In this document: positions 1-9,280 of the stretch, in pieces
How positions within the stretch are numbered: position 1 is the stretch's first letter
How the letters are laid out: each line of letters starts with the position of its first letter
Origin: a virus
Taxonomy: Duplodnaviria > Caudoviricetes
Virus record (IMG/VR): IMGVR_UViG_3300042268_000564
Reading direction: 5' to 3' (one strand)
DNA length: 64,000 bases
The notes under the pieces: generated by a model
What the model saw: the letters and a program-made list of their open reading frames with translations, nothing else
Databases searched by the model: none
What the model was told of the DNA's origin: nothing
Made by a program: the position numbers and the translations under genes

Positions 1-421
1 TGTCTACAGGTGATGCAAGCATTTCAGTTAGGATAGAGTCGGGTTCATCGAGGACTTTTTCTTCTTTATCTTCCAGCCATTCTTCGAAGTGCATTGCGAA
101 AGCGTATGATTCCATATTTGGTGCGTCACCTTCAAAAAGGATGTGGTAGAAATTGAGATTATATTTTGATGCGAATTGGAATATGTGGTTTAGAATTTGG
201 TATTCAGCATCTTCAAGGGATTCAAATTGTTTAGGATTTACGTCATGGCCGTCTTCTTTCATTTGGTGGTCATAGTAATCCATTGCTACGTTTTGGAAGT
301 AATTGTAGAGAAGCAGGAGGTCTTGAGCTTTTTGGGTATTAGTCCCTTGTGGTCTTTCTGGTCGGATGTTCGGAAATTGTCTCAAGTAGTGCGTACAGCA
401 CATTTTCGGTCGGGTGGTCAT
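1..421 (-). CDS. hypothetical acidic protein, runs off the left edge of the window
   Basis: Open minus frame from ATG 421 (MTTRPKMCC...EMLASPVD) with no stop before position 1; AGGTGG upstream; absent from the ORF track because it is truncated. Confidence 0.6.
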   Translation of the reverse strand, partial: MTTRPKMCCTHYLRQFPNIRPERPQGTNTQKAQDLLLLYNYFQNVAMDYYDHQMKEDGHDVNPKQFESLEDAEYQILNHIFQFASKYNLNFYHILFEGDAPNMESYAFAMHFEEWLEDKEEKVLDEPDSILTEMLASPVD

Positions 422-915
422 AAAAAGCCACCTGCACCTTTGTCGCCAGAAATGCCGACATTGGGTGCTATCCGAGAATCTACGGCGAAATTCCGTGGTG
501 CGAATCGTCATCAGAACTGTTCGGGTGACGTGGGTAACTCTAACGAGCTACCTTAAAGTTTAAGTTTTTATAACTTTGCTTGAACGGTTCTGGGTTGCTG
601 GCAAGCTGGATTGTATCGTAGATAGAGTGGCAACTATCTCATACTAATAAAAGGTGATGTAAGCCAATGAGATTATATTCGATGAGCACGCCTTTCGCAG
701 GGAGATAACAAAGAACGAGTGTTCTTACAGGTGTAAAATGTGCCTTCATTTTATGGTTGTTTACAAATAAAGATTGACATCGGAATAGGTGATACGGCAT
801 AAAGCCGTGAAATAGATAAGAGAAGCTTGGTAAGAGTTCAGCAATGTGTGGCTGAAAATTTTTTGCTGTACGGCGATTGGCATCGTTGTTGTAATTGTTG
901 AATTGTGCCTTATAG

Positions 916-948
916 AAAAAGAGCCTGACTTTGTTTCAGGCTCTTTTT
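916..948. terminator. bidirectional intrinsic terminator
   Basis: AAAAAGAGCCTGA-loop-TCAGGCTCTTTTT. Confidence 0.75.
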
Positions 949-5484: not shown

Positions 5485-6102
5485 TTAGAGAAGTTCTTTT
5501 TCTTGTTTGGTAGGTTTATGTCCCCACATTTCTATTTCTTTTGTTGTGAATATGGCATATGTTCCTTTTGCGAACCAGAAGTCTCCCTGAGCGGGAACTA
5601 ATTTGGTTCTTTTTGTACTCATATTGCCATCCCGGAGGTGAGCTACAAGCTGAAGATTGATTTCGTTGTAATTTTCCAACACAGATTTCTCTAAATCTCT
5701 GATAAATTCTTCTGCACGGTCACAAGCCATAACATGTTGAGGTCTCGGCACCGACCGGGCACGCTTTATTTTATGTGCTTGTCCATATTCAAATATCAGG
5801 TGATAAGACGTTATGGTTAAAATTGTGCAAATTTGCCATGTAAGAGTGTGAATGTCAAAATCTCTGATACTGAATCTATTGAGACTGTTAGTAGAGTCAA
5901 ATACTGCAAGAGGTGCTTTGTCTTTATTGGCATAGAAGGATATGTGGTGTATTTCGTCTATGTCGAGGTAGTGATTGATGTGGGGGACAAGAGTCCTGTA
6001 TCGCAAGACACAGTCGAGAGTGTCTAATTTGTCTTCAGAATAGAAACCGACAGCCTCTATTTTTTGCAAATATTCATTAAAAAGCTCATCTTGATAGCTC
6101 AT
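5485..6102 (-). CDS. hypothetical protein ending KELL*
   Basis: 205-aa ORF, ATGA-coupled to the upstream gene. Confidence 0.7.
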   Translation of the reverse strand: MSYQDELFNEYLQKIEAVGFYSEDKLDTLDCVLRYRTLVPHINHYLDIDEIHHISFYANKDKAPLAVFDSTNSLNRFSIRDFDIHTLTWQICTILTITSYHLIFEYGQAHKIKRARSVPRPQHVMACDRAEEFIRDLEKSVLENYNEINLQLVAHLRDGNMSTKRTKLVPAQGDFWFAKGTYAIFTTKEIEMWGHKPTKQEKELL

Positions 6103-6416
6103 GGTTCTATATTATCACCAAGGATGGCTACAGGGTTATTGTTTATTATCAGAATCTTTACCTTGTTGCCGGGTTCTATCCACCTATACTGTCTGTAAGA
6201 CATTTTGAGTTGGTAATTCCCACCACAATAATTCACTATACAGAAATAGTTGCCATTATATGGCTCTAATTTGTAAACAATTGTCCCTGTCGTTCGTATT
6301 GCCCTGTTTTCTGAACTTTTTGGTCGATAAAATAAACTGAGACTAATAAGCAAGACAATAATCACAACAATAAGTATGTTGCGTGGCGAATCTTGTTCCG
6401 TCCTAAAAATCTTCAC
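6099..6416 (-). CDS. single-TM protein whose original start (7672) was displaced by the IS
   Basis: Removing 6398-7668 restores ATG GAA CAA GAT (MEQDSPRN); an in-frame GTG at 6416 with AGGA lies inside the IS end. Confidence 0.65.
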   Translation of the reverse strand: MKIFRTEQDSPRNILIVVIIVLLISLSLFYRPKSSENRAIRTTGTIVYKLEPYNGNYFCIVNYCGGNYQLKMSYRQYRWIEPGNKVKILIINNNPVAILGDNIEP

Positions 6417-7668
6417 AAACAATCCTGTTTGTTAGATTTAATTCCTGTTTCATAGAACCATTTCTAGGAACACAGGTCTGCTCCCCCGAAAGAGGATTCT
6501 CCGCAGGCTTAACATTCGGGGGAACTCCCCGTACAAATTTATTATATGCAGCCAAATTCATAGCTGCATTAATATCTCTATCGTGCGTAATGCCACAAAT
6601 AGGACAAGTCCATGTCCTAACGTGTAATGGCATCTTGTCCTGTTTGTAGCCGCAACTCGAACATAGCTTAGAACTTGGATAGAATGTATCTACTTTAGTA
6701 AGTGAACTGCCATACCATTCCGTCTTATATTCAAGCTGCCTGATAAATTCTGACCAAGAAGCATCTGATATGCTAAAAGCTAATCTCTTATTTTTAAGCA
6801 TATTGGATACTTTCAATGTCTCCACTACAATTTCTTGCTTGGTTTTCGCAAGGAATGTAGTCAATTTATGCAGAAAATCCTGACGGATATTTCTTACACG
6901 GCTATATGTTTTGGCAAGCTTTATTCTTGCTTTTTGGCGATTCTGAGAAGCTTTCTGCTTCTTGGCTAATCGTCTTTGCAGTTTTTTGATTTTCTTCAAA
7001 TATTTTTTCAATATTTTTGGATTATCAATTTTTGTTCCATCGGATAATGTCGCAAAATGTATCAAGCCGAGGTCAATGCCCACGACTTGTCCATTTTGTA
7101 TCTTTGGCTCTGGAATGTCTTGTTCTGTCGTAAAAGAAACATACCATCTGTCTACATCTTTAGACACAGTTGTAGAAATAATTCTACCTTGTATTTCTCT
7201 TTGCTCTTTGAGTCTCACTTTGCCGATTTTCGGCAGGTGAGCATAATTATCTTTGCAATATGCCTTTTCGTCGAAAGAAAAACTTTCTCTGGAACTTTTT
7301 TTCTTATACTTCGGGAATCCAGCAGGCTTTCCTTGTCGTATATTTCTAAAAAAGTTTTTAAAAGCTTTGTCGAGATTGCGCAAAGCTCCTTGTGGTGCTG
7401 ATTTACTTACTTCATACATCCAAGGAAACTGGTCTTGTTTGATTGCGCACAATTCTTTGTGCTGTGTTATTGCTGATGTAGATTTTTTCTCTGCCTCGTA
7501 AAGCTTAATGCGTTGTGCTAATCCCCAATTATAAGCGAACCTTGCTGTTCCGCAAGATTTATTCAACAAAACAATTTGTGTCTTGTTGGGCTTCAATTCT
7601 ATTTTGTAAGCTTTGTGAATAATCATATTTTAATATTTTGCAAGCAATTTTAACAAACAGCAATAAAA
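6398..7668 (-). mobile_element. non-autonomous IS607-type tnpB-only element
   Basis: Bounded by GG at both junctions; 14-bp subterminal repeats 6408-6421 and 7646-7659 (12/14 identical); no tnpA present. Confidence 0.75.
6403..7626 (-). CDS. tnpB: TnpB RNA-guided endonuclease
   Basis: N-terminal KAYKIELKP HTH; RuvC-I GIDLG, RuvC-II VVETL, CxxC/CPxC zinc finger, RuvC-III DRDINAA; C-terminal SMKQE. Confidence 0.95.
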   Translation of the reverse strand: MIIHKAYKIELKPNKTQIVLLNKSCGTARFAYNWGLAQRIKLYEAEKKSTSAITQHKELCAIKQDQFPWMYEVSKSAPQGALRNLDKAFKNFFRNIRQGKPAGFPKYKKKSSRESFSFDEKAYCKDNYAHLPKIGKVRLKEQREIQGRIISTTVSKDVDRWYVSFTTEQDIPEPKIQNGQVVGIDLGLIHFATLSDGTKIDNPKILKKYLKKIKKLQRRLAKKQKASQNRQKARIKLAKTYSRVRNIRQDFLHKLTTFLAKTKQEIVVETLKVSNMLKNKRLAFSISDASWSEFIRQLEYKTEWYGSSLTKVDTFYPSSKLCSSCGYKQDKMPLHVRTWTCPICGITHDRDINAAMNLAAYNKFVRGVPPNVKPAENPLSGEQTCVPRNGSMKQELNLTNRIVCEDF

Positions 7669-7790
7669 CCATTATTTCTTGTTCCTTATATTTCTTATTC
7701 TTTCCCACAAAAAGATAATTTATAAAAAGTTTTCGATGGTAGAATATAGAAAAAGCGCAGTGCGCTATCAATTTCTCGGAGGAATTCCAA

Positions 7791-8066
7791 ATGAATAAAG
7801 CTGAAACTATCCAAACCCTTGCAACTAAGGCTGACCTTACCCAAGCTCAAGCAAAAGCTGCCCTTGAAGCTCTTCTCGCTGCATGGACTGAAGCTCTCGC
7901 TGGCGGCGAAGTTATCGCCCTTGCTGGTTTCGGGAATTTCAAGACAACACAAAGAGCTGCCCGTAATGGTATTAATCCAAAGACAAAACAGCCTATCAAA
8001 ATTCCTGCAAAGACTGCTGTAACTTTCAAGCCAGCGTCTGCTCTTAAGGAAGCTGTAAACGAATAA
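7791..8066 (+). CDS. hup: HU family DNA-binding protein
   Basis: MNKAE start; GFGNF...RAARNGINPKT...IPAK..VTFKPA; GGAGG SD. Confidence 0.95.
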   Translation: MNKAETIQTLATKADLTQAQAKAALEALLAAWTEALAGGEVIALAGFGNFKTTQRAARNGINPKTKQPIKIPAKTAVTFKPASALKEAVNE

Positions 8067-8092
8067 TCACCTCTCTGTTATATTTGTGTAAG

Positions 8093-8118
8093 GAGCCGTC
8101 CTTGTGGCGGCTCTTTTT
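8093..8118 (+). terminator. intrinsic terminator
   Basis: GAGCCGTC-loop-GGCGGCTC-TTTTT. Confidence 0.75.
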
Positions 8119-8167
8119 ATTGACATTAGTCTTATTACATTTATAATAAGCAAAAAAGGAGTATTTT

Positions 8168-9280
8168 ATGCGAAATGATGTATTTATTCCTGAAAAGATT
8201 AATGTTGGCTTTCAGAAGCGTGATGGCACTTACACTGGAAAGCTTGCTTATGTTGTCTACTTTGACAATAAAGGAGTGCTCAGGAAAGAAAAGTCGTGGC
8301 AATCATGGCGTGACAAAAATATCCCCAATGAAATCTATGAGAATAAGCCTACAGAGGGCTTTGTCTTAAATAAGAAAGTGGGTGGAACTAAGTGCCACTG
8401 GAATCCACGTCAGACATATGTGAGGGTTTACGACCCTCGTGGCTTTGAGTTCGAGCTAACCGTTCCGAATCTGTTGTATATCCTTGAAAATACCAGTTCT
8501 ATCAAGGGAAAAGGTCTGGAAGGTGAATTTGTTTATGGTTATTCAGGGACAGACCTTGTGTTAATTCCAACCTCCTCCCCTGATTATGAGGAGTTGATGG
8601 ATTTTAACGCCAAGCTCAAGACAGAGAACCCAAAAGCAAAAGATTTGGTGCTCGGTGGGACATATCTGGACAATAAAAATCAAGAATTGATTTACATGGG
8701 TAGATTTGATTATTGGACAATAAATTATGGCGAAAGCCGCTATAATTACACCACTCGTAGTTATGAGTATACTCCGAGTAAAGACGTGAATAAAGGCTTG
8801 CATCATATTTTTGCCCAAAAGAATAGCAGAGGTGGCTATTTTTACACGCAAATGAAAAGCATTTCCAAGCGAATCATTTCTGTTGTATCTGCTGAACCAA
8901 GCCCTGAGTATCCAACAATATTTGAGGACATGGAATGTCAGACATGGTATTCCCCACTTGATGAGTCGAAAACAGAATATGTTTCTTTTACCTTTGATGA
9001 ATTTATTGAAGCCGCAAAAGGGGATAAATGGATTAGAATTTACAACTATAATGGGAGTCAAGATGATTCATTACACTGGGCATTACGTGGGCACGACAAT
9101 CAATTGCAGGCTCTCGTGTTGGAAGAAAGGAAGAATAATCCTGACTTCGAGCTAAGTGAGGTAATAAAGCAAGAAGCAGACCCACATGCCGAAGGTTCAT
9201 GGTGTAAAAAAGCATTTGCGATTCTTAATCCTTATCACAAGTATCAGTATCTTAAAAATGGAAAGAAAATGAAGGAGTAA
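8168..9280 (+). CDS. conserved large-phage hypothetical protein
   Basis: 370-aa ORF; promoter 8120-8147 and AGGAG SD. Confidence 0.75.
   Translation: MRNDVFIPEKINVGFQKRDGTYTGKLAYVVYFDNKGVLRKEKSWQSWRDKNIPNEIYENKPTEGFVLNKKVGGTKCHWNPRQTYVRVYDPRGFEFELTVPNLLYILENTSSIKGKGLEGEFVYGYSGTDLVLIPTSSPDYEELMDFNAKLKTENPKAKDLVLGGTYLDNKNQELIYMGRFDYWTINYGESRYNYTTRSYEYTPSKDVNKGLHHIFAQKNSRGGYFYTQMKSISKRIISVVSAEPSPEYPTIFEDMECQTWYSPLDESKTEYVSFTFDEFIEAAKGDKWIRIYNYNGSQDDSLHWALRGHDNQLQALVLEERKNNPDFELSEVIKQEADPHAEGSWCKKAFAILNPYHKYQYLKNGKKMKE

What the first reader, a model, noticed from the sequence alone, without database searches (positions are those of the whole stretch)
6378..7672. IS607-type tnpB element inserted within a start codon, supplying a replacement SD and start; guide and TAM predictable
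Seen on the minus strand: left junction AAGGAACAAGAAATA-ATGG|TTTTATTG (7672-7669) and right junction TTTAGGACGG|AACAAGATTCG (6398). Joining at the shared GG gives ATG GAA CAA GAT TCG (MEQDS...), restoring the membrane-protein gene. The right end carries AGGA-6 nt-GTG in frame with that gene. Known: IS607 serine transposases cross over at GG, and TnpB uses an omega-RNA from the right end whose guide is the flanking DNA. Inference: guide about AACAAGATTCGCCACG, TAM ending ATGG, cleavage of element-free alleles (homing in co-infection), and a nearly harmless insertion without an intron.
Basis: partly seen in the sequence, partly recalled or inferred. Interest (0 to 1): 0.7.

Follow-up and report, generated by a model that had tools for sequence, protein, structure and literature searches.

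The report
Phage TnpB transposon on a start codon
A 1.27-kb transposon remnant carrying an RNA-guided nuclease gene (tnpB) sits exactly on the start codon of a small membrane-protein gene in a 394-kb wastewater phage, and its right end offers that gene a replacement ribosome-binding site and start codon; it is a well-anatomised new member of a known kind, and its activity has not been tested.

Summary
On the minus strand, window 7668-6398 is a tnpA-less TnpB element. It is flanked by ATGG|TTTTATTG on the left and GGACGG|AACAAGA on the right.

- **Right end:** in 19 relatives, conservation and a covarying guide-RNA (omega-RNA) fold stop at an invariant ACGG.
- **Left end:** it follows the clade rule GG|T...CWGTT.
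- **Family:** the TnpB lies in a 100/100-supported clade holding every relative that has a serine-recombinase TnpA, so "IS607-type" stands. The RuvC triad and zinc finger are intact. The phage has no tnpA.
- **Host gene:** joining the flanks gives AAGGA-N10-ATG GAA CAA GAT, in frame with the membrane-protein ORF. The right end does carry AGGA-N6-GTG in that frame, but inside the last omega-RNA hairpin.
- **Not shown:** no empty allele turned up in any collection or in wastewater runs. Homing, TAM, use of the GTG and harmlessness remain inference.

Two additions. First, at least 5 of 18 clade members sit at starts of co-directional genes (nusB, nurA, an SNF2 helicase). Their G-rich, Shine-Dalgarno-like left flank explains this. 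Second, the phage has a promoter-driven solo copy of the omega-RNA scaffold elsewhere. This scan has already reported solo omega-RNAs and gene-end-restoring TnpB elements in other phages.

The parts
7743..7771 (-). Promoter-like site (TTGATA-17-TATATT) of the interrupted gene. It is the likely source of the transcript that now reads through tnpB.
   Evidence: Consensus scan, 10 of 12 matches. Not tested.
7683..7687 (-). Native Shine-Dalgarno AAGGA, 10 nt before ATG 7672.
   Evidence: Read from the sequence.
7669..7672 (-). Left flank ATGG. It holds the native start codon plus the GG crossover dinucleotide, and is the predicted TAM.
   Evidence: The clade's left flanks are A(G/T)GG.
7627..7668 (-). 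Left end (42 nt), TTTTATTGCTGTT..., with the clade motif T-N-CWGTT. tnpA is absent, and the tnpB ATG sits where tnpA starts in complete relatives.
   Evidence: Comparison with the left ends of 10 tnpA-bearing relatives. A profile HMM of the left end was too weak to score it.
6403..7626 (-). tnpB, 407 aa. RuvC D185/E269/D351 and the CxxC...CxxC zinc finger are intact.
   Evidence: Pfam, NCBIfam guided_TnpB at 344 bits, alignment to ISDra2 TnpB D191/E278/D361 and invariant columns.
6398..6533 (-). Omega-RNA scaffold (about 136 nt). It overlaps the last 44 codons of tnpB and ends at the invariant ACGG.
   Evidence: 19-sequence alignment. 23 of 24 consensus pairs show compensatory changes. nhmmer finds it in 20 or more relatives.
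6414..6426 (-). AGGA-N6-GTG inside the right end, in frame with the host gene. AGGA lies in the apical loop and GTG at the foot of the last omega-RNA hairpin.
   Evidence: Gene callers use this GTG. The base rate of SD plus start in relatives' right ends is 4 of 54 element-phase combinations.
6382..6397 (-). Predicted guide, and target in an empty allele: AACAAGATTCGCCACG.
   Evidence: Position directly after the conserved right end. The rule comes from the TnpB literature. No other GG-flanked match exists in the phage.
6099..6397 (-). Body of the interrupted small membrane-protein gene (EQDSPRN, then a hydrophobic helix). It has no relatives in the databases searched.
   Evidence: The only hit among 5.8 billion proteins is itself.
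7559..7672 (-). 37-codon ORF now opened by the orphaned native SD and ATG. It runs through the left end and overlaps the tnpB start out of frame.
   Evidence: (ORF 7559-7771).
7677..7693 (-). AAATATAAGG plus AACAAGA: an upstream copy of the first 7 guide bases behind a GG, 15 nt left of the real junction. Unexplained.
   Evidence: Anchored-match test gives k=7 against a null of 6 or less in 342 pairs. The same 10-mer plus guide copy precedes the solo omega-RNA.

Best explanation
Window 7668-6398 (minus strand) is a non-autonomous, tnpA-less member of an IS607-associated TnpB clade.

**Insertion (inferred).** A serine-recombinase TnpA supplied in trans, or homing from an occupied allele, placed it at a GG formed by the last base of the start codon and the first base of codon 2 of a small membrane-protein gene.

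**Expression (inferred).** The host gene's promoter now transcribes the left end, tnpB, the omega-RNA and the rest of the gene as one RNA.

**Nuclease (inferred from the family).** TnpB has an intact catalytic triad. It should bind the about 136-nt scaffold at the 3' end of its own message. That RNA continues into the flank as a guide of about 16 nt, AACAAGATTCGCCACG. The complex should cut element-free alleles that read A(T/G)GG followed by this sequence, for example in a co-infecting related phage. Repair from the occupied genome would then copy the element in.

**Host gene (inferred).** It is most likely kept alive by AGGA-N6-GTG in the right end, which adds six residues (MKIFRT) in front of the original residue 2.

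**Status.** Shown here: the boundaries, the RNA fold, the family placement and the reading frames. Inferred: the transcription pattern, cleavage, homing and use of the GTG.
For: **Right boundary.** The invariant ACGG in 19 relatives marks the end of similarity. A two-copy comparison gives GG|T...ACGG|.

**Omega-RNA.** 23 of 24 pairs show compensatory changes.

**IS607 association.**
- A resolvase-domain TnpA lies directly upstream of the closest genomic relatives, which are 46-55% identical.
- The tree has a 100/100 split. All 10 relatives with a serine TnpA lie on the window's side, and the relatives with a Y1 TnpA lie on the other side.
- The GG core, the absence of a target-site duplication and G-rich TAMs are published properties of IS607.

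**Nuclease.** D185/E269/D351 align with D191/E278/D361 of ISDra2 TnpB.

**Host gene.** The join gives an SD plus an in-frame ATG. AGGA-N6-GTG is in frame.

**Fixation.** Every contig of this phage that was shown or laid carries the element. Contigs from four further wastewater runs cross one or the other junction in the occupied form.
Against: - No empty allele was found, so the pre-insertion sequence is reconstructed, not observed.
- No tnpA of either type exists in the phage. Mobility today would need a helper or homing.
- The left end could not be scored by a profile.
- NCBIfam scores the protein higher on its IS200/IS605 TnpB model than on its IS607 model. Relatives that sit beside a serine TnpA behave the same way, so this ranking does not discriminate.
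- An in-frame start in a right end of this clade is common: 13 of 18 relatives have one in the same phase. Only the added SD is unusual.
- The SD and GTG lie in the omega-RNA's terminal hairpin.
Confidence: 0.8

Rival explanations
1. The true left junction is the upstream GG (7685-7684). The empty site would read ATATAAGG|AACAAGATTCG, and the gene would originally start at the in-frame GTG 7708 (MGKNKKYKEQDS...). On this view the element did not hit a start codon.
For: - The 9-nt direct repeat GGAACAAGA lies at 7685-7677 and 6399-6391.
- The frame is open upstream to 7771.
- The same AAATATAAGG plus guide copy precedes the solo omega-RNA.
Against: - The clade's left-end motif (T...CWGTT) starts at 7668, not 7683.
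- GTG 7708 has no SD, whereas ATG 7672 has AAGGA at 10 nt.
- No relative shows 15 extra bases between the GG and the left-end motif.
Confidence: 0.1
2. The element is a fixed, domesticated nuclease-guide module that no longer moves. The phage uses it, together with the solo omega-RNA, as a weapon against related phages or other DNA. The host-gene junction is then only a historical scar.
For: - No tnpA of either type is present.
- The element is present in every sampled contig, which come from ten or more wastewater runs.
- A second scaffold at C1:135567-135707 has a strong TTGACA-16-TAAAAT promoter, no tnpB and a different guide.
Against: - Both guides match only their own flanks in this genome.
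- No target in another genome was identified.
- This overlaps with the main explanation rather than excluding it, because homing and exclusion use the same mechanism.
Confidence: 0.3
3. It is an IS200/IS605-type (Y1 transposase) element. Its ends would be defined by subterminal hairpins, and its TAM would be AT-rich.
For: - NCBIfam scores the IS200_TnpB model at 392 bits against 274 for IS607_TnpB.
- The closest solved structure is ISDra2 TnpB, an IS605 element.
Against: - Relatives that carry a serine TnpA give the same NCBIfam ranking.
- The tree puts the Y1-associated relatives across a 100/100 split.
- Both ends abut GG.
- Y1-type relatives in the same search have quite different ends, TTTA|TTTTATC... 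and ...GTTCACT|.
Confidence: 0.04
4. The membrane-protein gene is simply inactivated. The in-frame GTG is a coincidence, and the ORF is intact only because the insertion is recent or the gene is dispensable.
For: - Starts without downstream stops occur in 23 of 57 element-phase combinations of relatives' right ends.
- The protein has no relatives and no known function.
- All copies are identical, so no selection signal is available.
Against: - SD plus start occurs in only 4 of 54 combinations outside the window.
- AGGA and GTG are both specific to this copy.
- Relatives tolerate insertion directly before nusB, nurA and an SNF2 helicase gene. This argues that downstream translation survives such insertions.
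Confidence: 0.3

Closest known systems
IS607-family elements with a serine-recombinase TnpA and TnpB (for example the Clostridium botulinum CboIStron/IS607 studied in bioRxiv 10.1101/2023.11.20.567912)
   Same: - GG at both junctions, with no inverted repeats and no target duplication.
- A short left end. About 40 bp suffices in Cbo.
- An omega-RNA at the right end whose guide is the flank.
- A G-rich TAM ending in GG (TGGG in Cbo).
- tnpA-less copies that keep an intact tnpB are known.
   Different: - No tnpA and no group I intron here.
- The TnpB belongs to a different lineage, close to ISDra2.
- The predicted TAM is A(T/G)GG.
- The gene is rescued, if at all, by a start signal in the right end rather than by splicing.
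ISDra2 TnpB with its omega-RNA/reRNA (IS200/IS605; PDB 8EXA, 8BF8, 8H1J)
   Same: - It is the closest solved protein (E 5e-92 over residues 1-363).
- It has the same catalytic triad and zinc finger.
- Its omega-RNA also overlaps the 3' end of tnpB.
   Different: - ISDra2 moves with a Y1 TnpA.
- It has hairpin ends.
- Its TAM is TTGAT.
IS607 TnpBs guided by RAGATH-18-derived reRNA (ISFba1 type; PMC11061315; PDB 8IAZ is probably this type)
   Same: They are IS607-associated RNA-guided nucleases with G-rich TAMs (AGGAG or GAGGG, per PMC13565253).
   Different: - The protein is much more distant (E 1e-44).
- No RAGATH-18 match was found in the region, even at E up to 1.
Stand-alone omega-RNAs and gene-end-restoring mini elements in phages
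   Same: A solo, promoter-driven scaffold with its own guide occurs in the same genome as a single matching tnpB.
   Different: Here the solo copy is flanked by a duplicated copy of its own guide sequence.

Membership tests
TnpB / OMEGA RNA-guided nuclease | HTH + RuvC (OrfB_IS605) + zinc-ribbon TNB architecture | tested here: met
   Pfam PF12323, PF01385 and PF07282 all score above their cut-offs. NCBIfam guided_TnpB scores 344 bits against a cut-off of 100.
TnpB / OMEGA RNA-guided nuclease | Intact RuvC D-E-D triad | tested here: met
   D185, E269 and D351 align to ISDra2 D191, E278 and D361. They are invariant in the 6-sequence alignment.
TnpB / OMEGA RNA-guided nuclease | Structured omega-RNA at the 3' end of tnpB, ending at the transposon end | tested here: met
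   23 of 24 consensus pairs show compensatory changes in 19 sequences, and all end in ACGG.
TnpB / OMEGA RNA-guided nuclease | RNA-guided, TAM-dependent DNA cleavage | not testable with these tools
   This needs a cleavage or TAM-depletion assay.
IS607 family | Serine-recombinase TnpA in the element | tested here: not met
   No PF00239 match in the element or anywhere in the 394-kb phage. The element is therefore at most a non-autonomous derivative.
IS607 family | Nearest relatives are bona fide IS607 elements (TnpA_S directly upstream of tnpB) | tested here: met
   Nine upstream ORFs carry the Resolvase domain, two of them also MerR. All 10 relatives with a serine TnpA lie on the window's side of a 100/100 split.
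IS607 family | Ends abut a GG core dinucleotide, with no inverted repeats and no target-site duplication | tested here: met
   The junctions are ATGG|T and ACGG|A. The same holds in 19 relatives and in a two-copy pair. The upstream 9-nt repeat does not abut the left end.
IS607 family | Excision to a circle and a scarless donor joint by TnpA_S | not testable with these tools
   No empty allele or circle junction was seen in contigs.
IS200/IS605 family | Y1 (HUH) TnpA, subterminal hairpins and an AT-rich target | tested here: not met
   No PF01797 match in the phage. The Y1-associated relatives form the other clade and have different ends.
TldR (nuclease-dead TnpB-like repressors) | Loss of RuvC catalytic residues or a truncated C-terminus | tested here: not met
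   The triad and the zinc finger are intact.
IStron | Group I intron fused to the IS | tested here: not met
   No intron family was found in 5500-8500 at E up to 1. The left end is only 42 nt.

The most novel reading that the evidence does not exclude
This IS607 clade may be adapted to live in translation-initiation regions.

- Its G-rich target and TAM (GAGGG, AGGG, ATGG) coincide with Shine-Dalgarno sequences and ATG-G starts. Copies therefore land between the SD and the start codon, or on the start codon, of co-directional genes. At least 5 of 18 copies do so, including insertions before nusB and nurA.
- The G-rich right end (GGAGAACGG; here AGGA-N6-GTG in the loop and foot of the last omega-RNA hairpin) acts as a built-in replacement ribosome-binding site. 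That would make it an intron-free counterpart of the IStron solution.
- The price would be competition between guide-RNA formation and host-gene translation.
- The guide duplications seen to the left of both omega-RNA units in this phage would then be footprints of imprecise homing.
Probability: 0.25. Interest if true: 0.6.

Novelty: new member of a known kind. Interest (0 to 1): 0.42.

Why it matters
It gives a fully delimited, compact (407-aa) TnpB with a covariation-supported omega-RNA, a predicted 16-nt guide and a predicted TAM (A[T/G]GG). All of these can be tested directly. It also adds a concrete case to the idea that transposon nucleases act as homing or exclusion devices between co-infecting phages.

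The wider point is how a selfish element can sit on a start codon in a densely coded genome. The clade's Shine-Dalgarno-like target and right end suggest one way. That idea could be tested with simple reporters. It would also set up a measurable conflict between guide-RNA biogenesis and host-gene translation.

Tried and rejected
**Empty alleles: none found.**
- The membrane protein has no homologue except itself.
- Exact look-ups of the HU and 205-aa neighbours read 12 contigs each. Every place shown is occupied.
- Four lower-share wastewater runs gave no joints. Their contigs cross the junctions in the occupied form.
- A pattern covering both candidate empty sites found nothing in viral contigs. 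It found one unrelated chance match in metagenome contigs.
- Distant jumbo-phage relatives keep the 370-aa and 137-aa genes but not HU or the membrane gene, so there is no syntenic site to compare.
- The solo omega-RNA locus is also uniformly occupied.

**Other searches that led nowhere.**
- No RNA holder is listed among the sequencing runs.
- Rfam has no family for this omega-RNA, including RAGATH-18. Only sub-threshold chance hits appeared.
- The GenBank phage collection holds no near relative of the locus.
- The left-end profile HMM gave no significant hits.
- The complete Atabeyarchaeia genome holds a single copy, so it gave no extra boundary test.

**Ideas rejected.**
- ATATAAGG is not a general promoter motif of this phage: 20 copies against about 24 expected.
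- An unanchored alignment of the two left flanks is not significant.
- The NCBIfam IS200-versus-IS607 ranking is not a discriminator.

Full report
**Setting.** The window is the start of a 393,839-bp virus record rated complete. The phage recurs in wastewater metagenomes. The finding lies between a divergent HU gene (7791-8066, plus strand) and a run of minus-strand genes with no known relatives.

**Observation.**
- On the minus strand, the native-looking AAGGA (7687-7683) is followed after 10 nt by ATG (7672-7670) and G 7669.
- TTTTATTGCTGTT... then begins at 7668.
- tnpB runs from 7626 to 6403 (407 aa).
- The sequence ends ...TTTTTAGGACGG at 6398, and the flank AACAAGATTCGCCACG starts at 6397.
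- AGGA (6426-6423), 6 nt and GTG (6416-6414) are in frame with GAA CAA GAT and the 99 codons that follow.
- Public gene calls start the protein at that GTG (105 aa).

**What the protein is.**
- Pfam finds the three TnpB domains. NCBIfam's general TnpB model scores 344 bits.
- The closest solved structure is ISDra2 TnpB (E 5e-92).
- The alignment puts D185, E269 and D351 on the catalytic D191, E278 and D361. The four zinc-finger cysteines are kept.
- It is therefore a presumptive active nuclease, not a TldR-type repressor.

**Right boundary and guide RNA.**
- TnpB relatives at 46-55% identity were fetched from viral and genome collections.
- The last 140-150 nt of the element align across them, and similarity stops after an invariant ACGG.
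- RNAalifold on 19 sequences predicts four helices. 23 of 24 pairs carry compensatory changes.
- This is the omega-RNA scaffold (about 6533-6398). It overlaps the last 44 codons of tnpB.
- By the family rule, the guide is the flank from 6397.

**Left boundary.**
- Relatives that still have tnpA show ...(A/G)GGG|T, followed 4-9 nt later by AAC(A/T)GTT or CTGTT.
- Two 88%-identical copies in one Thorarchaeota contig are alike only from GG|T to ACGG|.
- The window has GG|TTTTATTGCTGTT.
- A profile of this short, variable end had no power. The left junction is therefore supported less formally than the right.

**IS607 or IS605?**
- The phage has neither a serine nor a Y1 transposase.
- Nine ORFs directly upstream of the closest genomic relatives carry the Resolvase domain. 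One more distant relative carries a Y1 transposase.
- In a maximum-likelihood tree of 45 TnpBs, a 100/100 branch separates two groups. One holds the window and all 10 relatives with a serine TnpA. The other holds the Y1-associated ones.
- NCBIfam ranks its IS200 model above its IS607 model for the window. It does the same for TnpBs that sit next to a serine TnpA. That ranking says nothing here.
- The element is thus a tnpA-less derivative of an IS607-type lineage whose TnpB is close to the ISDra2 type.

**Host gene.**
- With these boundaries, the reconstructed empty site reads AAGGA-N10-ATG GAA CAA GAT TCG. It is in frame with the membrane-protein ORF.
- The upstream frame happens to stay open to 7771 and contains GTG 7708. 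That codon has no SD and lies near the predicted promoter (7771-7743). ATG 7672 is the best candidate for the native start.
- The orphaned SD and ATG now open a 37-codon ORF through the left end. It overlaps the tnpB start out of frame.
- tnpB has no SD of its own, and it sits where tnpA starts in complete relatives.

**The replacement start.**
- The GTG and the AGGA are both specific to this copy. Relatives have TAT or GGT in place of GTG, and AAGA or TAGA in place of AGGA.
- The T-to-G change that makes the GTG also turns the TAA that ends tnpB in L008 into GAA. tnpB is thereby lengthened by three codons.
- Across relatives, a start with no later stop is common in this phase (13 of 18). SD plus start occurs in only 4 of 54 element-phase combinations.
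- The fold puts AGGA in the loop and GTG at the foot of the terminal hairpin, CAAACA-GGAU-UGUUUG. TnpB binding or scaffold folding could therefore compete with initiation.
- Use of the GTG is plausible but unproven.

**Population.** Every contig shown or laid carries the element. Contigs from four further runs cross one or the other junction in the occupied form, and none joins across it. Pattern scans for either candidate empty site gave nothing relevant. Homing therefore remains an inference from published TnpB biology.

**Wider pattern.** Among 18 non-redundant clade members, several sit at the start of a co-directional gene:

| Copy | Position relative to the gene |
|---|---|
| Window | On the start codon |
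| L011 | After codon 7 |
| L013 | 9 nt before the ATG of an SNF2 helicase gene |
| L048 | 9 nt before the ATG of nusB |
| L056 | 5 nt before the GTG of nurA |
| L050, L008 | Possible further cases |

- The left flanks are GAGGG-like, that is SD-like. The right ends are G-rich too (GGAGAACGG).
- This suggests that the target preference itself steers these elements into ribosome-binding sites, and that the right end substitutes for the displaced SD.
- The held literature does not link IS607 with Shine-Dalgarno sites in this sense.

**Second locus.**
- At C1:135567-135707 (minus strand, outside the window) lies a 70%-identical copy of the scaffold alone. It keeps 17 of the 24 consensus pairs.
- It follows a TTGACA-16-TAAAAT promoter and precedes a 37-codon ORF. 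It is present in all sampled contigs.
- Its guide would be CAGGAGAATACGAAAA.
- Directly upstream of the scaffold is AAATATAAGG plus an 18-20-nt degenerate copy of that guide.
- In the window, the same 10-mer plus 7 guide bases lies 15 nt left of the junction. Both exceed a cross-locus null.
- One possible cause is imprecise repair of TnpB-cut empty sites. This fits the 5'-truncated solo copy well and the window less well. It is recorded as unexplained.

**Verdict.** The element is a new, cleanly delimited member of a known kind. This scan has already noted TnpB elements that spare gene ends, and solo omega-RNAs, in this phage and in others.

Noticed in passing
L002:1471-1640 (= G000:C1:135567-135736, minus strand; outside the window): A solo omega-RNA scaffold, about 70% identical to the window's and with no tnpB. 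It follows a TTGACA-16-TAAAAT promoter and precedes a 37-codon ORF. It is flanked on the left by AAATATAAGG plus a degenerate copy of its own guide (CAGGAGAAT..GAAAAAAT). It is present in all sampled contigs.
   Followed up: partly
window 7677-7693 and 6391-6399: A 9-nt direct repeat, GGAACAAGA, lies 15 nt left of the left junction and across the right junction. In the reconstructed empty site it forms a 15-16-nt tandem duplication (AAGAAATATAAGGAAC / AAGAAATAATGGAAC). Its cause is unknown.
   Followed up: partly
L048:1549-2020, L056:4214-5380, L013:3767-5561, L011:3738-4577: Relatives of the element end 5-9 nt before the start codons of nusB, nurA and an SNF2 helicase gene, or after codon 7 of a phage gene. 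Their left flanks are Shine-Dalgarno-like (CAGGG, GGGAGGG). This suggests that the clade targets translation-initiation regions.
   Followed up: partly
L008:2471-3754: In this phage relative, the ATG of the left flank (ATGG|TAGAAG) is in frame with tnpB. It adds 10 residues, so the host gene's start codon may drive TnpB translation directly.
   Followed up: no
G000:C1 82775-83965, 89533-90684, 356719-357786, 360210-361472: Four further, mutually diverse TnpB-like ORFs lie in the same phage. No transposase of either type is found anywhere in the genome.
   Followed up: no
window 7754-7766 (minus strand): A terminator-like hairpin (AGCGCACTGCGCT plus a T-run) overlaps the promoter-like site in the HU / membrane-gene divergent region.
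   Followed up: no
window 1-933: The first 933 bases of the window are not the start of contig C1. The first 100 bases match C1 at about 393,712, so the window wraps around the end of the record.
   Followed up: no
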